Shown piece by piece: positions 5,770 through 40,140 of a DNA stretch of 44,820 nt. The stretch is from Escherichia phage SM_S22, in sequence record PP627283.1; one strand, 5' to 3'. The number at the start of each line of letters is the position of its first letter. Position 1 is the first letter of the stretch. A model generated the notes under the pieces. It had not been told where the DNA came from and searched no databases. It worked only from the letters and a program-made list of their open reading frames with translations. The position numbers and the translations under genes were made by a program.

Positions 5770-5798
5770 TAGTGTGTCCTCGTTGTTGGTGTGCAACC

Positions 5799-5862
5799 AA
5801 TATATGCAACCAATACGAGGATTGCAAGCGAATTTTGCGATTATTTTTATCGCTGATAATAT
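5799..5862. promoter_or_regulatory. divergent sigma70-like promoter pair
   Basis: Minus: TTGCAA(5822-5827)-17-TATATT(rc of 5799-5804). Plus: TTGCGA(5835-5840)-16-TGaTAATAT(5854-5862). Two TGCAACCAAT motif copies. Confidence 0.5.
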
Positions 5863-11073: not shown

Positions 11074-11387
11074 TTGAGGCGGCGCGACGCTTTTATGGCC
11101 CGCCGCCACCCTCCGAAGATTTAGCCGCAAGTTTATGGGGTGCGGCCCCCGAAGATGTTTGTCCGCCTGTTGCGCTATGGCCTGACAACGCGAAGATAGT
11201 CGCCGTCTTCACAGATTGCGCCACGCAATGGCGCACCGGATTTGGTGGCGCATACGGCATCGACTACGGCGTGCTGGAGTGGTTATTTAAGATGCACGGT
11301 ATCGAAAACGAGCAGCGCGCGTTTAAAGATATCAAGCTAATGGAACGCATCGCGCTTGATGAAATGGCGCAGCAGAACCCCGCATAG
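10711..11387 (+). CDS. tail assembly chaperone GT-like fusion via programmed -1 frameshift
   Basis: Heptamer A AAA AAC at 11064-11070 in X XXY YYZ register; the -1 frame stays open for 105 codons to TAG at 11385-11387. Confidence 0.5.
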
Positions 11388-11708
11388 TGAAGCGGGACAG
11401 GCGGGACGTCCCGTTTTGTCCCACCTCTGTAAAACCGCATATCTAATCACTTTTATTGCATAAACTCAAAGCGGGACAGGCGGGACGTCCCGCTTTGTCA
11501 CACCCTGTAAATGTGCATACCTATGCAGATTTCGTGCATAAAACAAACGGGACAAAAAGCGGGACAAACACGAGGCGGGACAAAGCGGGACAGCACCCCG
11601 TCCCCGCCAGTGCTGCCGCGGTTTTCAGCCGATCGGGACAGCGGGACAGCACCCCAGTCTTTCAGACTAGACGGGGGTCAGCGGCCCCCCTCGTCTGAGA
11701 CTGAATAA
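11388..11708 (+). repeat. CGGGACA-repeat element, copy 1
   Basis: Two ~75-bp units each holding palindrome GCGGGACGTCCCGC, then a 112-bp unit (11548-11659) with six CGGGACA copies and a 49-bp hairpin tail (11660-11708) that are identical to 39478-39749. Confidence 0.85.
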
Positions 11709-11771
11709 GGTTTGTTTTGAAATCGCTGATACAATATCCATCGGCAACTGCATAAAAAAGGGGACTGCATA

Positions 11772-14414
11772 ATGGCAGATCAGGCAGCAGGCATCACGCT
11801 AAAGGCTGATGTTGCACAAATCAGAACGGCAAATACTGTGCTGGACTCCTTCGCACAGAAATCCGAGAACACAGAAAACAAGGTTAAGAAATTAAACGAC
11901 ACCCTCGGCAAATCCAAAAAGGTGACGAGTGACGCCGCTGGCGGAATGGAAAAGCTGGCAAACGAATCGCAGCGCGCCGCCGATGGCATGACGAAACAGG
12001 AGCGACTCGCCAACAGGTTAGGCATGTCGACTAAAAACCTGGGCTTTGCCTCGCGTAACGCCGCATTCCAGTTACAGGATATCGCAGTTACGCTTGAGAT
12101 GGGGATGCCGGTACACCGCGTTATGCTTCAGCAGTTACCGCAGCTAACTGGGGCGTTCGGTGGATTGGGTAACACTCTGCGTTATGTTGCTGGCTTCCTC
12201 GGTCCAGTTGGGATCGGCCTTGCTGCGGTAACGGCAACGTTAGGCGTGGGCGTAGCAATTACGTCCCGCGCAGAGAACCAGGTCGCAGCGCTTAACAAGA
12301 CGCTGGCGCTGTCAGGTAACATTTCCGGCCTAACGGCAAACCAGATCCTGGTGCTATCCGAGAACGCCGAGCGCATGGGCGGATCATTCCGCAAGACGCG
12401 TGACACAATCCAGGCGCTGGCGGCGGCGGGTGTGAAAGCGGGTGGTGACTTCGGCGCATTGGCTAAGGTAGTTAATGACTTTGCGAAGGTGTCCAGCCAG
12501 CCGATCGAGGATGTGGTAGCGGCGGTGGCGAAGCTGTCAACCGACCCCGTTGGCGGACTGCGTGCGCTGGCGGATAAGTATCACGTCGTAAACGAAGCGC
12601 AGATCCAGCAGGTACAGTCGCTCGTTGATGCGGGTCGTGAGACAGACGCAGTTGCGCTGGCTAACAAAACAGCCGCCGCGTCGTTTACCACTATGACCAA
12701 TGAGATCAAGTCCAACATGGGTACGCTTGAGCGGTCGATGAACGTCGTTACATCGGCAGCTAAATCTATGTGGGATGCCATCCTGGATGTCGGGCGCGCG
12801 CAGTCCTCGAATGAGTCAGAGATGAAAGCGCGTGAATCATTGCAGCGACTGACCACGGCTTACTATGCCGAGATGAAAGCGGTAAACGCTGCCGGTGGGG
12901 TGATGACCGAAGCGCAGAAAGCGCGTATTAACATGCTTTACAGCGAACTGGTAGCCCAGGAAAAAGTAGTGGCGTCGCTCACCCTGCGCAACCGTGCAGA
13001 GCGAGACAACGCAAGTGCCGCTGACGAAGCAGCAAAGGCGAACGAAGAGGCAAACCGCACCGCCCGCGATCGCGCCGCGTTCGAGAAGGAGTACGCAACC
13101 AACGCGAAGAGGCGCGCCGACGAGATCGCCCGCCTCAATTTGCTTAATAAGCGCGGCGTGATTGACGAGAAAGAGCTTGCCGAGGCGGTGAAGCAGGTAA
13201 ACGAGCGTTACAAAGACCCCGCCCCGAAGAAGGCCGCCGCTGTTCGAGTCGATGCCGGGCTGAAAATGCTGGAAGTCGCGCGAAGCGAATTAGCCCAGCT
13301 TCGTGAGTCTGGAAAGCAGATCGAAGCCAACGCATCGACGCAGACCCGCACGCAACGCGCGCAGGCGGCCCTAAACAAGCTGATCGCGGATAATGAGCAG
13401 TTAATCGCAGCAAGCAAAGAAAGAGCACTAACGGCAGCAGAAAAGCAGCAGATGGTCGAATTCGGACGCGTGAAGGAAGTACGCGAGCAGATCGTCGAAG
13501 AAGCCAAATTGCTGGACGCGAAAGAGAAGCAGGTCAAGGCGCACGCGCAGATCGACGCCTTCGTTAAGAACCAGAACGCCGAGCTAAAAGCCACCGCGGC
13601 GGGATATGCGCTTTCCACTCGCGAAGCGGCTAACCTGCGAGAAGAATTGCAGCTAATTGATCGCCTGAAGCGGGTGGGCGCTAGCGATACCGATATTGAT
13701 CTGGCGGTGTCTAAGCTGCGCGAAGTGCAGGAAGCACAGACCGGTGCTAACGCCTCGCTATGGGATGGCTTCAGCCGCGGGCTTAAGGATAGCGTTGATG
13801 AAATGGGTAACGGCTATACGCAGATGACGTCACTCACAAAATTCACGTTCGGCGCTATGCAGGACACGATGAACGAGTTTTTCGAGACTGGCAAGCTGAA
13901 CGCAAAGGATATGGTTAAGTCCATTCTGAGCGAATTAATCAAGCTGGCTACATCGCAGGCGTTCAAGTCCATCGTTAGCGCTTTCGGTGGCGACGGAGGC
14001 AAAAACGGATTGTTCGGCGCTATCTTCTCCGGCCTCACTAAGAATGCGGACGGCGGAGCGTACGCAGGGGGCAATCTCGCGGCCTATTCGGGGCAGGTGG
14101 TAAGCCAGCCAACCTTTTTCAGTTATGGCGTCCAGGCGTTCGCTAAGGGCGCAGGATTGATGGGCGAGGCTGGTCCCGAGGCCATCATGCCGCTGAAGCG
14201 CGGGCCGGACGGGAAACTGGGCGTTGCCGCGTCTGGCGCAGGCGGAGGGATGATTGTAACGACCAACGTTAACATGGGGACCGGTAAGACGGATACCAGT
14301 GTTAGCGGTCCAGACCCGCGCACCGCGCAGGCGTTCGGAAAGCAAATCACCGAGTCGGTCAAGGCCGAGATCGTGAAGGCGACGAAACCGGGTGGTGTAC
14401 TTTACAAACGATGA
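11772..14414 (+). CDS. tail tape measure protein
   Basis: 880 aa, long helical/Ala-rich region, Gly-rich C-terminus; follows chaperone pair. Confidence 0.8.
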   Translation: MADQAAGITLKADVAQIRTANTVLDSFAQKSENTENKVKKLNDTLGKSKKVTSDAAGGMEKLANESQRAADGMTKQERLANRLGMSTKNLGFASRNAAFQLQDIAVTLEMGMPVHRVMLQQLPQLTGAFGGLGNTLRYVAGFLGPVGIGLAAVTATLGVGVAITSRAENQVAALNKTLALSGNISGLTANQILVLSENAERMGGSFRKTRDTIQALAAAGVKAGGDFGALAKVVNDFAKVSSQPIEDVVAAVAKLSTDPVGGLRALADKYHVVNEAQIQQVQSLVDAGRETDAVALANKTAAASFTTMTNEIKSNMGTLERSMNVVTSAAKSMWDAILDVGRAQSSNESEMKARESLQRLTTAYYAEMKAVNAAGGVMTEAQKARINMLYSELVAQEKVVASLTLRNRAERDNASAADEAAKANEEANRTARDRAAFEKEYATNAKRRADEIARLNLLNKRGVIDEKELAEAVKQVNERYKDPAPKKAAAVRVDAGLKMLEVARSELAQLRESGKQIEANASTQTRTQRAQAALNKLIADNEQLIAASKERALTAAEKQQMVEFGRVKEVREQIVEEAKLLDAKEKQVKAHAQIDAFVKNQNAELKATAAGYALSTREAANLREELQLIDRLKRVGASDTDIDLAVSKLREVQEAQTGANASLWDGFSRGLKDSVDEMGNGYTQMTSLTKFTFGAMQDTMNEFFETGKLNAKDMVKSILSELIKLATSQAFKSIVSAFGGDGGKNGLFGAIFSGLTKNADGGAYAGGNLAAYSGQVVSQPTFFSYGVQAFAKGAGLMGEAGPEAIMPLKRGPDGKLGVAASGAGGGMIVTTNVNMGTGKTDTSVSGPDPRTAQAFGKQITESVKAEIVKATKPGGVLYKR

Positions 14415-21932: not shown

Positions 21933-23549
21933 ATGGCAGCGGGTACGCTATCCGTAACGAACAATAGCAAGGCGGTAGTAGGGGTCGGCACAACGTTTAC
22001 CGCGTTTAAAGCTGGCGACTTCCTAACGCTGGTGGTAGGGCAAGTCCCCTACACCGTGGCAATCGCATCAATCGAAAGTAACACGGCGCTTACGCTGGTG
22101 TTGCCGTTCGACGGCCCAACGGCAACCGGCCTCGCGTGGGATGGCGTTAAGCGCGATACCATGTCGCTGGCAACGATGGGCGTTACCGTACAGGCGCAAA
22201 AAGCATTGCGCTTGATGATCGCAGATGAAAACAACTGGCGTGCAATCTTCGGCGACGCTGAAGAAATCACAGTGACGTTACCTAACGGGCAGGTTATGCA
22301 GGGCATGTCATGGGGCTATCTGTCGCAGCTAATGAAGCAGATCGACCCTGTGGAGATGCGCAACCTGCAACAACAAGCCGCCGCATCGGAAGCAGCCGCG
22401 CAAGGATTTCGCAATGAGGCCGAAGGCTTCAAGACCGAGACGGCGGGTATTCGCGACGCCACCAATGCCATCAAGACGCAGACCAACCAGATTAAGGCTG
22501 ATACGCAGGCCATCAAGGACCAGACGAACCAGATCAAGACGGATACGCAGGCCATCAAGGACCAGACGAACCAGATCAAGACTGATACTGGCGTTATTCG
22601 AGATCAGGCCAATACCGCGAAGACGGACGCGCAAGCCGCCCGCGATGCCGCGCAGGGGTATCGGGATGAAGCCGAAGACTTCAAAAACGCGATCGACCCT
22701 ACGCAATTCATGAAGAAGTCGCAGAACCTGGCAGACGTCGCCGATAAATCGGCGGCACGCGCTAATCTTGGTTTGGGGTCGGCAGCTACGGAGAACACCG
22801 TTCCGATCGAGAAAGGAGGAACCGCCGCGACGACTGTAGCCGCTGCGCGCACTAATTTCGGGTTGGGCGATAACAATAACGTAAAACTTGGCACGTTGCG
22901 CCTAAACGGGGGTGAATCGCTAGTCTTCAATGATGTCGAAAGAAACGGCTTAGCACTATCCAACGTGTCGTACGGCATTGACAGTTGGGTAGGCTTCACC
23001 ATGCATAAATGGTACGCCGACTGGACACGCGCAGGAATTGTGCGTGCGGGTGACACCCACGTGTCAGACTACCGCATCCACGTGTGGAGAGATGGTATTA
23101 CTGAAGCGCTGTTCCGCTTCCTGCCGGACGGCAGGCTTATTCAGGGTAACAGCAACAACCTTTCCGTAAATGAGTTTCAGAAAGCAGCGCTGTCGGACCG
23201 CGACCTTAAAAAAGAAATCCAATACACTGACGGCGAGGAAAGCTACAACCGCGTTCGTCAATGGCTTCCGGCAATGTTCAAGTATAAGGAGTCTGACGTA
23301 CAGCGATACGGCCTTATCGCGCAGGACCTGGCAAGGATTGACCCGGAATACGTGCATTTGCTGCCGGGTTATGCCATTTATGAGGATATCAAGGGGGTTG
23401 ACGAGGAAGGGAACGAGGTTGTAGTCGACCGCAAGGAGATCGGGTATACCGACGATGTGCTGTGTCTGGACAGTAACGTGCTGTTGATGGACCTGTGTGC
23501 CGCCTTCGTCCACCTGTTGCATAAAGTTGAGAAGCTAGAAGGTAAATAA
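21933..23549 (+). CDS. tail fibre with C-terminal self-cleaving intramolecular chaperone domain
   Basis: 538 aa; tandem repeats IKxQTNQIKxDTQA; C-terminal SDRDLKKEI...YGLIAQDLARIDPEYV resembles Peptidase_S74 chaperone domains of T5 L-shaped fibre and endosialidases. Confidence 0.7.
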   Translation: MAAGTLSVTNNSKAVVGVGTTFTAFKAGDFLTLVVGQVPYTVAIASIESNTALTLVLPFDGPTATGLAWDGVKRDTMSLATMGVTVQAQKALRLMIADENNWRAIFGDAEEITVTLPNGQVMQGMSWGYLSQLMKQIDPVEMRNLQQQAAASEAAAQGFRNEAEGFKTETAGIRDATNAIKTQTNQIKADTQAIKDQTNQIKTDTQAIKDQTNQIKTDTGVIRDQANTAKTDAQAARDAAQGYRDEAEDFKNAIDPTQFMKKSQNLADVADKSAARANLGLGSAATENTVPIEKGGTAATTVAAARTNFGLGDNNNVKLGTLRLNGGESLVFNDVERNGLALSNVSYGIDSWVGFTMHKWYADWTRAGIVRAGDTHVSDYRIHVWRDGITEALFRFLPDGRLIQGNSNNLSVNEFQKAALSDRDLKKEIQYTDGEESYNRVRQWLPAMFKYKESDVQRYGLIAQDLARIDPEYVHLLPGYAIYEDIKGVDEEGNEVVVDRKEIGYTDDVLCLDSNVLLMDLCAAFVHLLHKVEKLEGK

Positions 23550-24718: not shown

Positions 24719-24779
24719 GATGTTTTCCTTTTTAGTGGGAGGCGTATTGCCCCGACGCGTTAACTATAGTGCAACCAAC

Positions 24780-25250
24780 CTATTGGTTGCAAGTGAATTT
24801 TGCAACGTTTATCGCGTAAATTTTCGGGACCAAATCACCACACGCCCGACGAATTGCCGCGATGTTCTTCTCGCAATCTTCAATGATGACCAGTTCCGAC
24901 ACGTCCGCATAGCAGACCATTTTGAACACGGCGCACGCCTTAAACTCAGGCGGCGGGGTGTCGTCCTGCATGTGGCGCATAAACAACCGGCCTACCGGGA
25001 AGACCTCCAATTGCCTGGCGGTGGTGTCCCAGCATTCTCGCTGCCGGTTGGTCAGATACGCGATCTCGAAGCCTTGCTCTTTATACATGCTCAACAGCGG
25101 CAGCATATCCATGTTAAGGTCTTCGCGTACGTGCGCTTTGTGCCACTTCGCCCAAAATGTTGATTTGGTTTTTATCCCCGGCACCAGGTCGGCACGCGCA
25201 TCACTTGACCCGTTAATAACGCCATCCAAATCGCAAATCAGTAATTTCAT
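24780..25250 (-). CDS. HAD-superfamily phosphatase (nucleotidase / PNK-phosphatase-like)
   Basis: 156 aa; HAD motif I LICDLDGVI at N-terminus. Confidence 0.5.
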   Translation of the reverse strand: MKLLICDLDGVINGSSDARADLVPGIKTKSTFWAKWHKAHVREDLNMDMLPLLSMYKEQGFEIAYLTNRQRECWDTTARQLEVFPVGRLFMRHMQDDTPPPEFKACAVFKMVCYADVSELVIIEDCEKNIAAIRRACGDLVPKIYAINVAKFTCNQ

Positions 25251-26443: not shown

Positions 26444-26470
26444 TGCAACCAATATGATTGTGCAACCAAT
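26444..26470 (-). promoter_or_regulatory. internal sigma70-like promoter with TGCAACCAAT pair
   Basis: Minus-strand read TTGCAC-17-TATATT; two TGCAACCAAT copies (26444-26453, 26461-26470). Confidence 0.4.
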
Positions 26471-29387: not shown

Positions 29388-29666
29388 CTATGCGACCAAT
29401 TCAGCAACCAATAAATCGCAGTCGGATATGTTGTCGATAACGCGAACGTCAGCACCGCGGCGGGCCATTCGCTCATGTTCACGTACCTGGTGCGGCTTCG
29501 GTTTTCCTCCGGGGCGCTTCACTTCGACGAACACTATTTTGCCGTTGATGATAATAATCAGGTCGGGCGCACCCGCGCGCCCCTCCCATGCCAGTTTTCG
29601 GCAGAATCCTCCGACCTCTTTCACCCGTTTCATCAGGTGACGCTGCACCTTGCCTTCTGGTGTCAT
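29388..29666 (-). CDS. VRR-NUC domain nuclease
   Basis: About 92 aa; APDLIIIINGKIVFVEVKRPGGKPKPHQ. Confidence 0.55.
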   Translation of the reverse strand: MTPEGKVQRHLMKRVKEVGGFCRKLAWEGRAGAPDLIIIINGKIVFVEVKRPGGKPKPHQVREHERMARRGADVRVIDNISDCDLLVAELVA

Positions 29667-32848: not shown

Positions 32849-33628
32849 TTAACGGCGGCGACGTTTGCGCGGTGCTTCGTCTTCGTCGTCTTCGTCCTCA
32901 TCTTCGTCATCGCGGGACTTGCGACGTTTGCGAGGTTTTTCATCTTCCTCATCGTCGTCGTCATCGCGGCGCTTGGATTTCTTGGACTTGCGCGGCTTGT
33001 CATCCTCGTCATCATCACGACGTTTTGACTTCTTAGCCTTACGCGGGCTTTCGTCTTCGTCGTCGTTGTCCAGGTCTTCGTCGGAACAAGAAGACCCGCC
33101 ACCTCCGAAGGCTTCGCCGTCTTCACGGAAGCGTAAACCCAGCAAGCCAGCACCGAGTCCCTTGCCGTTGGTGTTGTTCCACGCCCAAATATCCAGTGAC
33201 ACGTTGCAATAACAACCGGAATAGATTTCCTGGCCTTCGATCTCGTCGCCGTCGATAGTCAGACCCTGCTCGGTCTGCTTCTCGCCCAGTGACGTTTGAA
33301 TGTTTGGCTGCTTGAACGATTTGGCGTTGATGTACAACATGCCTTCGAATTCTTCGGTTACTTCGTCGCGCTCGTCACCGTCGCGAACTGCGCATTCCTT
33401 AGAATCCTGGGCGTAGTGGCGGTCCATCCACTTATCGGCATTCTTCTCGGATTTCAGCTTATCGGTGAGCACTGCGCGCGCTGCCGCTTCCACTTTGTCC
33501 ACCTGCGGATCTTCTTTATCCAGAAGAATCACGGCACGGTATGCCGGTTTTTGTCCATCCTGTTTAGGGGTATCACGTTCCCAAATTTTCAGGAAACATA
33601 CGCGCACATTTTTCAGGTTGACTTTAGC
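32849..33628 (-). CDS. ssDNA-binding protein (DUF2815-like) with charged repetitive C-terminal tail
   Basis: About 259 aa from MAKVNLKNVRV (RBS GAGGAA); C-terminus has three tandem ~17-aa D/E-block plus K/R-block repeats. Confidence 0.45.
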   Translation of the reverse strand, partial: AKVNLKNVRVCFLKIWERDTPKQDGQKPAYRAVILLDKEDPQVDKVEAAARAVLTDKLKSEKNADKWMDRHYAQDSKECAVRDGDERDEVTEEFEGMLYINAKSFKQPNIQTSLGEKQTEQGLTIDGDEIEGQEIYSGCYCNVSLDIWAWNNTNGKGLGAGLLGLRFREDGEAFGGGGSSCSDEDLDNDDEDESPRKAKKSKRRDDDEDDKPRKSKKSKRRDDDDDEEDEKPRKRRKSRDDEDEDEDDEDEAPRKRRRR

Positions 33629-35865: not shown

Positions 35866-36309
35866 TTAATCTTCCAGTTCGAAATAGGTTTCGACGATTT
35901 CTTTTAAATCTTTGTGGAAGTCTTCGACGTCGTCATCTTCCAGCTTGGCGATTGATTTGATCTCGAACGCTTCCAGCAGGTCGTCGAATTCGTCGTTGGC
36001 GTCGTCGTCATCACCACCGGCGATAATCGCGGCATACTGTTTGATTTCGTCGCGCATCTCTGCCAGCGGATCGGCATCTTTCTTACCTTTGCCTTTCGCC
36101 GTGGCTTTTTTGCCTTTCGCCGGTGCTTTTTTGGTTTTCGCCGGTGCTTCGTCTTCAGCGTCGTCATCTTCTACGACTTCTTTTTTCGCCTTAGATGGCT
36201 TTTTATCTTCCTGCTTACCAACGGCAGCGCCAACGGTTTCATAATGCTTAGCGATGGTTTCCAGTGCTACTACGCCGCGAGTAATCAGGTTTACGATTTG
36301 TTCAAACAT
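35866..36309 (-). CDS. highly charged early protein (Lys-rich block between acidic blocks)
   Basis: 147 aa; RBS GGAGAT; first gene of minus-strand early operon. Confidence 0.5.
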   Translation of the reverse strand: MFEQIVNLITRGVVALETIAKHYETVGAAVGKQEDKKPSKAKKEVVEDDDAEDEAPAKTKKAPAKGKKATAKGKGKKDADPLAEMRDEIKQYAAIIAGGDDDDANDEFDDLLEAFEIKSIAKLEDDDVEDFHKDLKEIVETYFELED

Positions 36310-36711: not shown

Positions 36712-37041
36712 ATGAATGTAAACGACGCAATCGAAATGTTAACGACGACTGTTAGCAGTGAAACAAGCCGGTCATGGGCTTATACCGATGCCGTTGGGGC
36801 GGTGCTATTTGAGGTCGAGCGCCTGCGCAGTGTAGAAAAAGAATTACGCGCCAGGCTGGAATTGCTCAACGGTACGGCGGCGAGCAAGCTACAAAAACAC
36901 AATGAAGAAATGGAAGAATACAAAAAGCAGGTTATCCGTTTGCGCGCCGAGGGCAAATCCTGGGCGATGATTGCCGAGTTGACCGGAATTAATCAGAGCA
37001 CAGTGCGCTCTTGGGTACGCAATAACAAAACTTCTAAGTAA
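36712..37041 (+). CDS. HTH DNA-binding protein (putative regulator)
   Basis: 109 aa; C-terminal HTH-like SWAMIAELTGINQSTVRSWV. Confidence 0.5.
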   Translation: MNVNDAIEMLTTTVSSETSRSWAYTDAVGAVLFEVERLRSVEKELRARLELLNGTAASKLQKHNEEMEEYKKQVIRLRAEGKSWAMIAELTGINQSTVRSWVRNNKTSK

Positions 37042-37051
37042 GGCCACGGCA

Positions 37052-39316
37052 ATGAGCTTAATTAAATTCGCTGTAACAAGACCCGCTAAAAAAGGCGAAA
37101 AAGCCAGGGCGGAAAACTTCCAGATGACGACCGATGAGTTTTTCGAATTTATCAAAGATGCGAAAGAAATCTCCTCGGTGCATATCAACAAGACGGAAGA
37201 TAAAGCCGAGTATGCGCGCCGCAAGCGTAAGGCCGACGGCATCGTGGCGTATACCAGTGACGGATTGCGTCGTAAGACCAGTGCGGTGGACCGCTCGATC
37301 CTGTTCTTTGATATCGACCGCACCGACACTCGCACCTTGCGCCGCTGCCGTAAGGCTTTCATCGATGCGGGTCTGGAACACGTATTCCACACCACAACCG
37401 GCGACCGCCACCCGCTGAAAGGAGGCACGCGTTGCGCTCGTTTCCTGGTGCTCACCGATAAGCCTGTACCTGCTGAAGACCTGGGCCGCGTCCAGTATGC
37501 ACTATTACACCAACTGGGTCTGTCAGATGTGGACTTCGACGATTGCACGAAAGACACAAACCGCCTGATGTACCTGCCACACCAGCAGTCTGTTATTAAG
37601 TGCCACTACGGAAAACGTGCCCGAGTCCGTCGTCTGCTTCGCCTGGCGGATAAGTTGGGCGTGGAGAAGGAGGAAGTACGCCGCGAACTAACCCAGGGCG
37701 ATGACGCAGTGGCAGACGGCATTCTGGACTGGTGCTTCCAGGCAGGATTCGAGGAGTTATCTTCCGGTCGCGGTTATGAAGTGCCGTGCCCGAACGAACA
37801 TCTGCACAGCGGCGAAGGGTCGACGGCTATCATGGTCAAGGATGGCGAGATCCGTTTCAAGTGTATGCACACCGGCAACGAGTGTTGCTCGGAACTGAAT
37901 AGACACCAGCACCTGGCGCTGCGTCTTATCGGGATCCCTGACCACCTGAACGTCGAGCCACACAACATGTCCCGTAAGCAAATCGCCGCCATCCTTCCGG
38001 GGCTGGACGACGAGGAAGTCGAATCCTTATATGAACATATTGTTGATGCGGTTGGCGACGGCGAAGAATACGGCGTGTGCACCGATGCGGATCTGGATAA
38101 CGAGCCGGTTGCGCTGTTCAGCAAGCACGACCCGATCATCGAGGGGTTGATTAACTTCAAATCGACCTGGTACATGGCGGGTGAGTCGAATATTGGTAAG
38201 TCTTTCTACGTGCTGGGTCAAATGGGCGCTGTTGCCGCCGGTATTCCGTTCGGCGGTGCGAAGGTCGTCCAGTCTCATTGCTTCTATTTCGATGCGGAAG
38301 GTGGTGAAGCCTCCAACCAGCGTAAAGAAGCATTGCAGATTAAATACGAGCACGACCTGGACAAGCTGCACATTATCGATCTGCAGTCACGCGGCTGGGA
38401 TATCACCAGCAAATCCGGCTTGCGCGAAGTTATCAGCTTTATCAACCGCACCGCTAACGGCGAACCGGTTGGCCTGGTGGCGTTCGACTCACTCAACCAG
38501 ACTGTTGCGCTGCGGTCCGCCGATGCTAAACCGTTCGACGAGAACAACGCCAGCGATATGGGTGAAGTGGTCAAAGCGCTGAAAGCCATTGCGGAAAATA
38601 CAGGTGGCAGTGCGGGCGTCATCCACCACCCGGCGAAGGGTGCCAACGGCAGCAGAACCCCACGCGGATCCGGCGCGCTGCATGGTGCTGTCGATTCTGC
38701 GTTCTTCCTGGAGCAACCAGACGACAACCAGCCCGGACAATTGAACCTGTATCATGAGAAGGCACGTAACGGCATCAAGCAAGCGCCGCGCGGATTCGTC
38801 CTGCTCAAGTGCAAGGTGAAGGTGGATCTCCGCAAGTCAGAAGCGTTCGAGGCGCACCAGTCCACCAGCACCGGGCCAGACTTCGGTGACGTGGTTGCCG
38901 GTTGGGACGTCAAGCCGATTGCATCCACGCCTCGCGACGAGACTCTGTACCTCGTACCGGTCGCCCTGGCACCGTTCGCCATCGAACAGGCGAAGGCAGC
39001 GGGCAAGGCCGCAGTTAAGGAGGAGAACGCCGCAGGCCCGCGCAATGAAAAAGAGAAAGTGCTTTATGCAGCGCTGGAAAAACTGATGGAAGATAACCCG
39101 GACCATACCGGATTCAGCAAATCGGCAATTGTCCGCCAGGCTGGACTTGCGAAAGGTGGCACGTCGACAAAGGCAATCGACGATATGGTCGAGCGCGGCG
39201 TACTAGGTTTTTACACAGATCCACACACCGGGGCCATCTATGGGTCGTCGAATATCGTCATTAAAACGAATATACCCATCACGCTTTCGGCGACCGATGA
39301 GGATTTAAAAGATTAA
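37052..39316 (+). CDS. bifunctional primase-helicase (AEP/PrimPol-like N-terminus, P-loop helicase C-terminus)
   Basis: 754 aa; AEP-like LFFDIDRTD; Cys/His zinc module; Walker A GESNIGKS and Walker-B-like LVAFDSLNQ. Confidence 0.6.
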   Translation: MSLIKFAVTRPAKKGEKARAENFQMTTDEFFEFIKDAKEISSVHINKTEDKAEYARRKRKADGIVAYTSDGLRRKTSAVDRSILFFDIDRTDTRTLRRCRKAFIDAGLEHVFHTTTGDRHPLKGGTRCARFLVLTDKPVPAEDLGRVQYALLHQLGLSDVDFDDCTKDTNRLMYLPHQQSVIKCHYGKRARVRRLLRLADKLGVEKEEVRRELTQGDDAVADGILDWCFQAGFEELSSGRGYEVPCPNEHLHSGEGSTAIMVKDGEIRFKCMHTGNECCSELNRHQHLALRLIGIPDHLNVEPHNMSRKQIAAILPGLDDEEVESLYEHIVDAVGDGEEYGVCTDADLDNEPVALFSKHDPIIEGLINFKSTWYMAGESNIGKSFYVLGQMGAVAAGIPFGGAKVVQSHCFYFDAEGGEASNQRKEALQIKYEHDLDKLHIIDLQSRGWDITSKSGLREVISFINRTANGEPVGLVAFDSLNQTVALRSADAKPFDENNASDMGEVVKALKAIAENTGGSAGVIHHPAKGANGSRTPRGSGALHGAVDSAFFLEQPDDNQPGQLNLYHEKARNGIKQAPRGFVLLKCKVKVDLRKSEAFEAHQSTSTGPDFGDVVAGWDVKPIASTPRDETLYLVPVALAPFAIEQAKAAGKAAVKEENAAGPRNEKEKVLYAALEKLMEDNPDHTGFSKSAIVRQAGLAKGGTSTKAIDDMVERGVLGFYTDPHTGAIYGSSNIVIKTNIPITLSATDEDLKD

Positions 39317-39326
39317 ATTTTGCGCG

Positions 39327-39427
39327 CATTGGTTGCCGATATGGGAATTCACATATCGCTAAACGATTAATTTGTGCGCGTATTGGTTGCCATTCTACGT
39401 GTTTTTATCTGGTCGCATTGGTTGCCG
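39327..39427 (+). repeat. three direct copies of 13-bp GCGCATTGGTTGCC-like box
   Basis: Copies near 39329, 39376, 39412; variant of the ATTGGTTGCA motif. Confidence 0.7.
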
Positions 39428-39477
39428 TGTAGTGTAAATATAATGAATAGTTATGCAATAAAACTGCATAAAGTAAG

Positions 39478-39749
39478 CGGGACAAAAAGCGGGACAAACA
39501 CGAGGCGGGACAAAGCGGGACAGCACCCCGTCCCCGCCAGTGCTGCCGCGGTTTTCAGCCGATCGGGACAGCGGGACAGCACCCCAGTCGGGACAAAAAG
39601 CGGGACAAACACGAGGCGGGACAAAGCGGGACAGCACCCCGTCCCCGCCAGTGCTGCCGCGGTTTTCAGCCGATCGGGACAGCGGGACAGCACCCCAGTC
39701 TTTCAGACTAGACGGGGGTCAGCGGCCCCCCTCGTCTGAGACTGAATAA
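39478..39749 (+). repeat. CGGGACA-repeat element, copy 2 (tandemly duplicated 111-bp unit plus hairpin tail)
   Basis: Units 39478-39589 and 39589-39700, each with six CGGGACA copies and inverted GTCCC; tail 39701-39749 identical to 11660-11708. Confidence 0.85.
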
Positions 39750-39917
39750 AATCCGGGGATTGCAAAATACACGGCAGCATGACGCGAAGTGCGGTCATCG
39801 ATGAACTAGGCAACCAATGCGAGTTGCATTATGCGGAGTGAAAAACGCAGTTTGCAGTTGCAGCAGATAGCGATCAACTTTTTCATGCGCGTGATTAATA
39901 TTGGTTGCATCCGCCCT

Positions 39918-39946
39918 GGCACCCTGCTATATTGGTTGCACACCAA
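39918..39946 (+). promoter_or_regulatory. sigma70-like promoter with conserved leader
   Basis: TTGCAT-17-TATATT then GGTTGCACACCAACA-GGAGGG-ATG; the same leader occurs (rc) before gene 5005-5769. Confidence 0.45.
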
Positions 39947-39960
39947 CAGGAGGGCGGAAC

Positions 39961-40140
39961 ATGAAAACCGAAATGGTTAATAAGCGCGAAATCAAGATCG
40001 GCGATACGGTAGTCCACAACGGGGAGCTTCGCACTGTGTGCAAGCGAGCGTTTAGCGTCGATGCATTTATGGGCCTGCTACTTTGGGGCGACAGCTATCG
40101 TTTAGGGCATAAACTGGTTGAGAGGGTTACGGAACTATGA
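39961..40140 (+). CDS. small hypothetical protein
   Basis: 59 aa from ATG 39961 with RBS AGGAGGG. Confidence 0.35.
   Translation: MKTEMVNKREIKIGDTVVHNGELRTVCKRAFSVDAFMGLLLWGDSYRLGHKLVERVTEL

What the first reader, a model, noticed from the sequence alone, without database searches (positions are those of the whole stretch)
39317..39960. 640-bp non-coding hub downstream of primase-helicase packed with nested repeats
This gap holds three 13-bp GCGCATTGGTTGCC boxes, then a tandemly duplicated 111-bp unit (39478-39700) with twelve direct CGGGACA half-sites at 11-16 bp spacing plus inverted GTCCC copies, then an imperfect hairpin (39701-39749), then ATTGGTTGCA promoters. Helically phased short half-sites next to a replication initiator gene fit iterons or an origin of replication, or a binding array for a phage DNA-binding protein. 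The ORFs predicted here (39374-39739 and others) are translations of the repeat.
Basis: partly seen in the sequence, partly recalled or inferred. Interest (0 to 1): 0.75.

Follow-up and report, generated by a model that had tools for sequence, protein, structure and literature searches.

The report
Duplicated iteron-type phage replication origin
The gap after the primase-helicase gene of this HK578-like E. coli phage is most likely its replication origin, an array of CGGGACA sites read by that enzyme's DNA-binding tail; the phage keeps a twin copy among its tail genes, and this isolate has freshly doubled the array.

Summary
The 111-bp unit is an exact tandem duplicate (39478-39700) with 12 CGGGACA copies, followed by a real hairpin and flanked by ATTGGTTGC boxes.

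The window is a complete Dhillonvirus genome. All 158 relatives carry this locus with one unit.

In this isolate the 161 bp of locus B match locus A exactly. Relatives differ in a locus-specific middle segment. So B was converted by A and then doubled, an isolate-specific event.

The iteron/origin reading gains comparative support:
- CGGGACA arrays sit directly 3' of primase-helicase genes, or inside DnaD-like initiator genes, in dozens of unrelated viral contigs.
- In a motif-blind sample of 77 homologous helicase loci, 39 have the array and 33 with none carry other heptamers at the same place.
- Three residues in the helicase's C-terminal helix track the heptamer sequence.
- The only relatives of the window helicase's C-terminus found outside the genus (Salmonella Cornellvirus) keep the layout but use GGGGAGA.
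- The window helicase ends in a predicted winged helix.

Origin firing itself is untested. This is a new member of a known kind (iteron origin beside its initiator gene). The second locus, and the same heptamer shared by unrelated initiators, remain unexplained.

The parts
37052..39316 (+). Primase-helicase gene (754 aa). It has an AAA_25/RepA-type helicase core and a predicted C-terminal winged helix (about aa 665-740). It is the proposed binder of the CGGGACA sites.
   Evidence: Pfam AAA_25 E=2.3e-19. PHROG 3228 'replicative helicase-primase'. AF2 H-H-H-beta-beta with pLDDT 70-83; Foldseek top hits are all MarR/ArsR/IclR winged helices but weak, E>=0.0095. It is the only window protein with homologues beside arrays in unrelated contigs.
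39328..39426 (+). Three ATTGGTTGCC boxes (39328, 39382, 39417). They are copies of a genome-wide intergenic box, probably an operator/promoter element rather than part of the iteron array.
   Evidence: 17 exact ATTGGTTGC copies in the window, mostly upstream of gene starts on both strands.
39430..39477 (+). AT-rich stretch (GC 27-33% against 54% for the genome). It holds TATAAT at 39439-39444 and the motif GAATAGTTATGCA..TGCATAAA. It is a candidate DNA-unwinding element and/or a promoter firing into the array.
   Evidence: Composition. Conserved in all B loci, with a related version at locus A. The 13-mer GAATAGTTATGCA is shared with Cornellvirus. No consensus promoter passes the scan.
39478..39588 (+). 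Iteron unit copy 1: six CGGGACA sites (4 + 2) around a 41-bp middle segment with an inverted GTCCC.
   Evidence: Motif columns are invariant in 66 of 84 columns against 50 of 132 spacer columns across Dhillonvirus loci.
39589..39699 (+). Iteron unit copy 2, an exact tandem duplicate. Together with the hairpin it is 100% identical to 11548-11708.
   Evidence: Relatives have one unit. The unit-unit junction is not found in one piece in the best-matching records.
39696..39744 (.). Conserved imperfect hairpin (G5-6/C6 inner stem, variable loop, no T-run after it). Possible roles: a priming or loading structure on unwound DNA, or a terminator-like stop for the upstream transcript.
   Evidence: z = -3.5 on both strands. 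Stems are invariant and the loop varies among relatives. It fails the intrinsic-terminator scan.
39810..39940 (.). Further ATTGGTTGC boxes (39810-39818 on the minus strand; 39900-39908 and 39931-39939 on the plus strand) in front of the next gene (ATG 39961).
11388..11771 (+). Locus A, the second ori-like region, lying between the tail-chaperone frameshift product (stop 11387) and the tape-measure gene (ATG 11772). It has two 79-bp modules with palindromic GCGGGAC/GTCCCGC plus AT-rich DNA (11390-11555), then the 161-bp element (11548-11708) with six CGGGACA sites and the hairpin (11655-11703).
   Evidence: Present in 158 phage records. Absent from Cornellvirus Shemara, where chaperone and tape-measure genes overlap.

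Best explanation
The CGGGACA array is an iteron-type replication origin, or at least the loading site of the phage's own primase-helicase.

Proposed mechanism:
1. The C-terminal winged helix of the 754-aa helicase-primase binds the heptamers on duplex DNA. There are six per unit, and twelve here after the duplication.
2. The adjacent AT-rich stretch melts, possibly helped by transcription from the TATAAT at 39439.
3. The self-loading RepA-type helicase ring assembles there and its primase part starts synthesis.
4. The invariant hairpin at the 3' edge may serve as a structured start or loading point once the DNA is single-stranded.

Locus A (11388-11771) is a second site of the same kind and is specific to Dhillonvirus.

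The 111-bp tandem duplication, and the replacement of the B-type middle segment by the A-type one, are recent events in this isolate: gene conversion from A followed by doubling.

Shown: the repeat anatomy, its conservation, its linkage to initiator genes across phages, and protein/heptamer co-variation.
Inferred: binding by the helicase, unwinding, and initiation at this site.
For: 1. All 158 Dhillonvirus records keep both loci. Motif columns are far more conserved than spacers: 66/84 against 50/132 invariant.

2. A scan of IMG/VR for three spaced CGGGACA hit more than 120 stretches. Of 105 non-Dhillonvirus loci, 85 have at least 5 motifs in 400 bp.
- 31 arrays start about 0-60 bp after, or overlap the 3' end of, a primase/helicase gene. 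The families are Prim-Pol+AAA_25, VapE-like, D5-like and phrog_21086.
- At least 16 lie inside DnaD-like initiator genes, the lambda-O arrangement.
- 4 more lie beside primases or initiators.

3. The window helicase is the only window protein with homologues next to such arrays: 14 loci at 24-29% identity.

4. In other phages the sites occur on both strands (145 sense, 97 antisense) in runs spaced 10-11 bp. That fits duplex-DNA binding rather than an RNA function.

5. In a motif-blind sample of 77 loci, 39 have at least 3 CGGGACA within 500 bp after the gene (8.1/kb against 0.25/kb elsewhere). Thirty-three have none, and nearly all of the loci with few or no CGGGACA that were examined carry another heptamer repeated 5-11 times at the same place.

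6. A residue triplet in the C-terminal helix x[KR]xxAFxRA tracks the heptamer:
- KKK/KKR/RKR with (C/G)GGGACA
- KQK/RQR/KQR with CCGGACA in 5 of 5 loci
- KEK with GGAGACA
- KRQ with CGTGACA, including Rhizobium phage 16-3

7. In the window's own helicase family, Cornellvirus Shemara has a last-108-aa segment 29% identical. It has the same layout right after the gene but uses GGGGAGA, with 7 of 9 genome copies there, and has no CGGGACA at all.

8. The window C-terminus is predicted to be a winged helix and is 92-100% conserved in most of the genus, 79% in LM40P1.

9. An AT-rich stretch adjoins the array. Arrays in general have AT-richer neighbourhoods than random windows of the same size (p = 1e-8).
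Against: - No direct evidence of initiation or binding exists for any of these arrays. Full-text searches found no paper on them.
- GC skew follows gene orientation and turns near 36 kb and 24 kb, not at 39.5 kb.
- In Dhillonvirus all sites point one way, with uneven spacing (8-48 bp). The element sits where early genes give way to the small, lysis and structural genes that follow on the same strand. A transcriptional role is therefore also possible.
- A second 'origin' inside the tail operon is odd. Single arrays are seen in Shemara and 16-3.
- Overall C-terminal identity separates same-iteron from different-iteron pairs only weakly: 0.30-0.35 against 0.27-0.28.
- Initiator families with no detectable homology in their DNA-binding ends share the same heptamer. 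A simple one-domain/one-site picture does not explain this.
- The AF2 model rests on 3 sequences (mean pLDDT 47) and the Foldseek E-values are weak.
Confidence: 0.7

Rival explanations
1. Transcription-control element. A protein, possibly the same helicase, bound to the co-oriented sites, together with the hairpin, acts as a roadblock, terminator or gate. It would act at the early-to-late boundary (locus B) and in front of the tape-measure gene (locus A), tuning read-through. This is compatible with an origin role as a second function.
For: - Both loci lie within + strand transcription units, and all sites are co-oriented with transcription.
- B separates the HTH/helicase genes from the small, lysis and structural genes. 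A precedes a gene needed in low copy.
- Locus A starts with palindromic motif hairpins followed by T-runs. These are annotated as a rho-independent terminator in HK578.
- A TATAAT fires into the array, which is flanked by ATTGGTTGC boxes.
Against: - Elsewhere the arrays use both orientations, lie inside initiator genes, and follow replication genes regardless of operon position.
- The main hairpin has no U-tract and fails the terminator scan.
- Cornellvirus has no element before its tape-measure gene.
Confidence: 0.15
2. Structured non-coding RNA transcribed from the TATAAT at 39439. Candidates are a put-like antiterminator, a protein sponge with GGA-containing repeats, or an antitoxin-like repeat RNA.
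For: - The part shared by loci A and B begins near the predicted transcript start.
- The RNA fold is somewhat more stable than shuffles: z = -2.4, 3 of 200.
- Two copies per genome recalls putL/putR (from memory).
Against: - No Rfam family matches.
- The minus strand folds equally well.
- The stems never vary, so there is no covariation to support a structure.
- In other phages the motif is used on both strands with duplex-type 10-11 bp spacing, and it changes with a protein helix.
Confidence: 0.04
3. Packaging signal (pac/cos-type terminase binding array).
For: Short repeats in two places per genome recall terminase-binding boxes and the T7 SRL/SRR heptamer arrays (from memory).
Against: - The terminase genes are at 1-1937, far from both loci.
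- In other phages the arrays track replication genes, not terminases.
- 16-3 has its cos elsewhere.
Confidence: 0.03
4. Passenger repeat with no function. This rival has real weight only for the tandem duplication itself, which may be a neutral slip or even an assembly artefact.
For: - The two units are 100% identical.
- The duplication is absent from the closest relative examined (BMA1) and from the best-matching records.
Against: - The single unit is kept in 158 genomes, with site-specific conservation.
- The junction CCCAGT|CGGGACA exists in neither parent locus, so a graph mis-join is unlikely.
Confidence: 0.05

Closest known systems
Satellite phage P4: alpha primase-helicase with ori and crr (from memory; Ziegelin, Lanka and colleagues)
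   Same: One polypeptide combines primase, helicase and a C-terminal winged-helix origin-binding domain. Short (8-bp) iterons are repeated about six times. A second cis site (crr) several kb away is made of directly repeated units carrying the same iterons.
   Different: P4 alpha has a different primase type and an SF3 helicase, not an AAA_25/RepA-type core. Its iteron is TGTTCACC. The sites are 4.5 kb apart there and 28 kb apart here. No sequence homology to alpha was detected or tested directly.
SaPI/PICI pri-rep modules with the ori immediately 3' of rep (from memory; Ubeda, Penades and colleagues)
   Same: The origin lies directly downstream of the initiator-helicase gene. It is built of short iterons beside AT-rich DNA, and specificity co-varies with the initiator.
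   Different: SaPI iterons flank the AT-rich core in two sets. Those elements are satellites. The helicase family differs.
Bacillus phage SPP1 oriL/oriR bound by G38P (PMC5737612)
   Same: A siphophage of about 44 kb has two separate initiator-binding regions with the same repeats. One is at the initiator gene and one is far away. The design is iterons plus an AT-rich DUE.
   Different: G38P is a separate replisome organiser with no helicase. oriL lies inside gene 38. The repeats (AB boxes) are unrelated.
Plasmid RSF1010 oriV with RepA helicase, RepB' primase and RepC (PMC8567376 and memory)
   Same: RepA belongs to the AAA_25 family, with a marginal PDB match to 1g8y. The origin combines iterons, AT-rich DNA and conserved hairpins (ssiA/ssiB) where priming starts, a possible model for the invariant hairpin here.
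   Different: There the three functions are on three proteins. The iterons are 20 bp. The hairpins come as an inverted pair.
Phage lambda O protein with ori inside gene O; archaeal plasmid pRN1 origin downstream of orf904 (PMC4234260)
   Same: The DnaD-like proteins with internal CGGGACA arrays mirror the lambda O/ori arrangement. pRN1 places its origin just 3' of a Prim-Pol-helicase gene.
   Different: Lambda iterons are 18-19 bp palindromes. The pRN1 origin is a stem-loop without an iteron array.

Membership tests
Iteron-type replication origin | Several copies of a short site, conserved as sequence while the spacers drift | tested here: met
   There are 6 sites per unit. Motif columns are invariant in 66/84 against 50/132 for spacers across 35 distinct Dhillonvirus loci.
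Iteron-type replication origin | Physical linkage to the initiator gene | tested here: met
   Locus B starts 160 bp after the helicase stop. The same linkage holds in at least 51 of 85 unrelated array loci and in 39 of 77 motif-blind helicase loci.
Iteron-type replication origin | Site sequence co-varies with the initiator's DNA-binding part | tested here: met
   In family 1 a helix triplet tracks the heptamer. In the window family, Dhillonvirus uses CGGGACA and Cornellvirus uses GGGGAGA, with a divergent C-terminus. The whole-domain identity effect is weak.
Iteron-type replication origin | Adjacent AT-rich unwinding element | tested here: met
   GC is 27-33% at 39420-39480. Arrays in general sit next to AT-richer DNA than random windows, although intergenic DNA is AT-rich anyway.
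Iteron-type replication origin | Initiator binds the sites; replication starts there | not testable with these tools
   This needs EMSA or footprinting, marker-frequency sequencing, or a plasmid ori assay.
P4-type ori/crr system | Two iteron loci, both required in cis, bound by a primase-helicase with a C-terminal winged helix | tested here: inconclusive
   Two loci with identical sites are present. A winged helix is predicted at moderate confidence. The cis requirement is untestable here, and homology to alpha was not detected or tested.
Intrinsic (rho-independent) terminator | GC-rich hairpin followed by a T/U run | tested here: not met
   No site passes the scan in 39200-40100 or 11250-11850. 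The hairpin is followed by GAGACTGAATAA.
Known structured RNA families (Rfam 15) | Match to a covariance model at the gathering score | tested here: not met
   There are 0 matches in the whole window and no tRNA or tmRNA.
Sigma-70 promoter (for the 'ATTGGTTGCA promoters') | -35/-10 hexamers with 16-18 bp spacing | tested here: not met
   The scan finds none. A perfect TATAAT at 39439-39444 lacks a good -35. The boxes look more like operator or factor sites.

The most novel reading that the evidence does not exclude
Heptamer arrays of the NNNNACA type, with CGGGACA the commonest, may form a widespread and so far undescribed origin 'code' shared by phage initiators that show no detectable homology in their DNA-binding ends. 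These include RepA-type and SF3-type primase-helicases and DnaD-like organisers. The code has a readable residue-to-base rule in at least one family. This would imply either a minimal recognition module shuffled among replication proteins, or a common unknown factor. Dhillonviruses would additionally run a two-origin genome, with one origin embedded in the tail operon, and gene conversion between the two can remodel and amplify the array.
Probability: 0.3. Interest if true: 0.65.

Novelty: new member of a known kind. Interest (0 to 1): 0.5.

Why it matters
- No origin has been described for Dhillonvirus, which includes the defence-study model SECphi18 and several BASEL-collection phages. Full-text searches found nothing for these phages or for the many phages with Prim-Pol/RepA-type helicases.
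- A sequence-defined origin and its binder would allow minimal replicons, origin-based phage engineering and marker-frequency studies.
- The residue-to-base correlation offers a way to predict origin specificity from a helicase gene alone.
- The second copy in the tail operon, and its exchange with the first, give a testable case of how phages evolve origin number and strength.

Tried and rejected
- **Known RNAs:** Rfam and tRNA scans found nothing.
- **RNA structure:** both strands fold equally well and no covariation is available. My first locus set was picked with the hairpin's 5' half as the search pattern, so that half is invariant by construction. Loci fetched by BLAST show the same invariant stems.
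- **Promoters and terminators:** consensus scans found none.
- **GC skew:** it follows gene orientation and is not informative for the origin.
- **Concerted evolution of loci A and B:** rejected in general. Within-genome identity (0.92/0.91) equals between-genome identity. Only this isolate shows conversion.
- **The small HTH protein (36712-37041) as binder:** no homologue lies near arrays elsewhere.
- **A universal small partner protein near arrays:** none found.
- **Shared homology between the DNA-binding ends of the initiator families:** hhalign probabilities are below 3%.
- **PDB sequence search of the helicase:** only a marginal RepA hit.
- **Protein database search with the C-terminus:** only 2 hits, so the AF2 alignment is shallow.
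- **First attempt at search for related loci:** it failed with an 11-sequence alignment that was too divergent.
- **Literature:** nothing on CGGGACA, TGTCCCG or GGGACA with iteron, origin or primase, and nothing in two Dhillonvirus genome papers.

Full report
**What the window is**

The 644-bp region matches 158 phage records at 80-92% identity. Almost all are E. coli Dhillonvirus, the HK578-like siphophages. A relative's annotation gives the gene order:
- Terminase, head and tail genes lie on the + strand up to about 24 kb.
- Replication genes lie on the - strand from about 36.6 kb back to 24 kb: family A DNA polymerase, Enc34-type SSB, a PD-(D/E)XK nuclease, a second helicase and methylases.
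- From 36.7 kb the + strand carries a small HTH protein, the 754-aa helicase-primase (37052-39316), the gap under study, then small genes, the lysis genes and one last gene.

The window is therefore a whole genome opened at the small terminase gene.

**Checking the observation**

- Tandem Repeats Finder reports period 111, 2.0 copies and 100% identity at 39478-39700.
- CGGGACA occurs 24 times in the window against 6.6 expected. Twelve copies are in the duplicate, all on the + strand.
- Spacings are 12, 16, 10, 48, 8 and 17 bp.
- The hairpin at 39696-39744 is much more stable than shuffled sequence on either strand (z about -3.5, 0 of 200).
- The three upstream boxes share ATTGGTTGCC only.
- ATTGGTTGC is a genome-wide intergenic box (29 copies with at most one mismatch against 12 expected). 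It usually sits just upstream of gene starts on either strand.
- The ORFs over the repeat are not genes. Relatives differ by many single-base indels within the array.

The unit plus hairpin (161 bp) is also at 11548-11708, identical base for base to 39589-39749. This locus A fills an unusual 385-bp gap between the tail-chaperone frameshift product and the tape-measure gene. It also contains two 79-bp modules, each with palindromic GCGGGAC/GTCCCGC and AT-rich DNA. All 158 relatives have both loci, each with one unit.

In relatives the 5' part (four sites) and the 3' part (two sites plus hairpin) are about 91% identical between A and B. A middle segment of about 40 bp is locus-specific:
- A-type: ..GCCAGTGCTGCCGCGG..CAGCCGAT
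- B-type: ..GCCCCGGATGACGCGGCCTGGAGAGGAG

Within-genome A-B identity is no higher than between-genome identity, so there is no general concerted evolution.

In this isolate both B units carry the A-type middle. Its closest relative at locus A (BMA1, 98%) has an ordinary single B-type unit. No best-matching record has the unit-unit junction in one piece. The duplication and the A-to-B conversion are therefore recent and isolate-specific. The junction CCCAGT|CGGGACA exists in neither parent locus, which argues against a simple assembly mis-join, though only reads could settle that.

**What the conserved element is**

Of 105 such loci, 85 have at least 5 copies within 400 bp, and some have up to 25. 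Their positions are telling:
- In 31 loci the array begins about 0-60 bp after, or overlaps the 3' end of, a large replication gene. These are Prim-Pol+AAA_25 helicases (the largest family), VapE-like, D5-type primases, and a 615-750-aa family that PHROGs relates to primases.
- In at least 16 loci the array lies inside a DnaD-like/O-like initiator gene, in its linker. This is the lambda O/ori arrangement.
- Four further loci sit beside primases or initiation proteins.

Other observations point the same way:
- The window helicase is the only window protein with homologues near these arrays: 14 loci at 24-29% identity over the helicase core.
- In these other phages the sites occur on both strands (145 sense, 97 antisense relative to the gene), in runs spaced 10-11 bp. 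This is the signature of a protein binding one face of duplex DNA, not of an RNA signal.
- Arrays also have AT-richer surroundings than random windows of the same size.

**A motif-blind test**

I fetched 80 viral loci by homology to family-1 helicases, without reference to DNA motifs. Of the 77 loci with enough downstream sequence:
- 39 have at least 3 CGGGACA within 500 bp after the gene end (8.1 per kb against 0.25 per kb elsewhere in the loci).
- 33 have none, so the distribution is bimodal.

Nearly all of the loci examined with few or no CGGGACA carry a different heptamer repeated 5-11 times at the same place. Examples are CCGGACA, GGGGACA, GGAGACA, CGTGACA, CGTAACA, CGCAACA, TCCGACA, CCGCACA and TACCGCA.

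After aligning the C-termini, three residues in a conserved helix (x[KR]xxAFxRA) track the heptamer:

| Helix triplet | Heptamer |
|---|---|
| KKK, KKR, RKR, RKK | (C/G)GGGACA |
| KQK, RQR, KQR | CCGGACA (5 of 5) |
| KEK | GGAGACA |
| KRQ | CGTGACA |
| KRV/KRA with TW | CGTAACA/CGCAACA |
| KWT | TACCGCA |

The KRQ group includes the model phage 16-3. There, 15 of the 27 genome copies of CGTGACA lie in the 360 bp after gene p101.

Whole-domain identity separates same-site from different-site pairs only weakly. The signal therefore lies in a few positions, as expected for direct base readout.

**The window's own helicase family**

Its C-terminal 108 aa are 92-100% conserved in most of Dhillonvirus, and 79% in the divergent LM40P1. 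The only relatives found outside the genus are in Salmonella Cornellvirus, at 29% identity over that stretch and 36-39% over a longer one.

In those phages the DNA right after the helicase gene keeps the layout: a box, the 13-mer GAATAGTTATGCA, AT-rich DNA, a run of heptamers, an inverted copy, further copies, and a G/C hairpin. The heptamer, however, is GGGGAGA. Seven of the nine copies in the Shemara genome lie there, and CGGGACA is absent from that genome.

An AlphaFold2 model of the window C-terminus is poor overall, resting on 3 sequences with mean pLDDT 47. Residues corresponding to about aa 665-740 do form a helix-helix-helix-strand-strand unit at pLDDT 70-83. The top Foldseek matches are uniformly MarR/ArsR/IclR-type winged helices, with weak E-values of 0.0095 or more.

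**Most likely mechanism**

The array is the set of binding sites (iterons) for the C-terminal winged helix of the phage primase-helicase. Together with the adjoining AT-rich stretch, it forms the origin where this self-loading RepA-type helicase assembles and primes.

A perfect TATAAT at 39439-39444, conserved as TATAAT or TATAGT in relatives, points into the array. It could provide transcriptional activation, but no consensus -35 is present.

The invariant hairpin with a variable loop has no U-tract. By analogy with the ssi hairpins of RSF1010, it may act on unwound DNA. This is inference only.

Binding and initiation are not shown by anything here. GC skew is uninformative because it follows gene orientation.

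**Rivals**

- **Transcriptional gate.** A gate at the early-to-late boundary and before the tape-measure gene is compatible with the co-oriented sites and the terminator-like palindromes of locus A. It does not explain the behaviour of the arrays in other phages. It may be a second function.
- **Structured RNA.** Disfavoured by the absence of Rfam hits, the equal folding of both strands, the lack of covariation and the duplex-type use of the motif elsewhere.
- **Packaging signal.** Disfavoured by position.
- **Passenger repeat.** Only the tandem duplication itself may be a neutral passenger.

**What remains unexplained**

- The same heptamer CGGGACA is used by initiator families whose presumed DNA-binding ends show no detectable homology, with hhalign probabilities below 3%.
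- Locus A is as conserved as locus B across the genus. It is absent from Cornellvirus, where the chaperone and tape-measure genes overlap, and single arrays are seen in Shemara and 16-3. It could be a second origin as in SPP1 (oriL/oriR, PMC5737612), a crr-like helper as in P4 (from memory), or a regulatory site.

**Comparison and novelty**

The architecture is that of known iteron origins placed beside or inside their initiator gene: P4 alpha/ori/crr, SaPI pri-rep/ori, lambda O/ori, SPP1 G38P/oriL, RSF1010 oriV, and pRN1 (PMC4234260).

I found no description of this origin, of CGGGACA-type arrays, or of the residue-heptamer correlation in the searchable literature. That library omits most subscription journals.

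I therefore class the finding as a new member of a known kind, of moderate interest. There is an open chance that the shared heptamer code and the two-locus design prove more general or more unusual than this analysis can show.

Noticed in passing
window 5793-5814(-), 21908(-), 24771-24790, 26445-26470(-), 29392-29412(-), 36515(+), 39328-39425(+), 39810(-), 39900-39939(+), 40661(-), 43473(-): ATTGGTTGC(A/C) boxes occur as 17 exact copies, nearly all intergenic and often paired just upstream of gene starts on either strand. The leaders 'tatATTGGTTGCAcaccaaca..GGAGG..ATG' at 5801(-) and 39931(+) are nearly identical. Cornellvirus has ATGTTGGCTGC at the matching places. This is probably the operator or promoter element of a phage regulator. 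A candidate is the 109-aa HTH protein at 36712-37041, which has a sigma-70 region-4-like fold.
   Followed up: partly
loci L143-L222 and L227 (family-1 Prim-Pol/AAA_25 helicases): A three-residue position in the C-terminal helix x[KR]xxAFxRA predicts the downstream heptamer: KKK with CGGGACA, KQK with CCGGACA, KEK with GGAGACA, KRQ with CGTGACA, KWT with TACCGCA. This is a readable protein-DNA recognition correlation across metagenomic phages.
   Followed up: partly
L227/L229: Rhizobium phage 16-3, record 56245-56605: The model temperate phage 16-3 has 15 copies of CGTGACA on both strands, AT-rich stretches, and a hairpin flanked by inverted copies, all in the 360 bp after gene p101 (DNA polymerase/primase). 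This is a likely unannotated origin.
   Followed up: partly
L037, L038, L043, L047, L060 and others (DnaD-like initiator genes): CGGGACA arrays lie inside the linker of DnaD-like/O-like initiator genes. There they are translated as SGT.. and GQQRD peptide repeats, so a DNA-level constraint is shaping the protein sequence, as in lambda O.
   Followed up: partly
window 39446-39458 and 11521-11533; L223 about 930-990: The 13-mer GAATAGTTATGCA just upstream of the array is shared by Dhillonvirus locus B and Cornellvirus, where it occurs twice, although their iterons differ. Locus A has a diverged version (GCATACCTATGCA). It may be part of the unwinding element or a host-factor site.
   Followed up: no
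window 11390-11555; L140 (Dhillonvirus LM40P1 locus A): The 79-bp modules at locus A (palindromic motif pair plus AT-rich DNA ending in TGCATAAA) vary in number between strains. LM40P1 has an extra one. HK578 annotates the first palindrome as a rho-independent terminator.
   Followed up: partly
window 22467-22588, 32949-33061, 36088-36149: Other tandem repeats are a 42-bp x 2.9 repeat in the lateral tail-fibre gene, a 51-bp x 2.2 repeat in the SSB-region gene, and a 21-bp x 3 repeat in a small early gene. All appear to be in coding sequence.
   Followed up: no
(protein database): A search with the helicase C-terminus returned only two Salmonella proteins and none of the more than 150 Dhillonvirus orthologues present in GenBank phage records. 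The large protein collection therefore seems to lack, or mask, this phage group.
   Followed up: no
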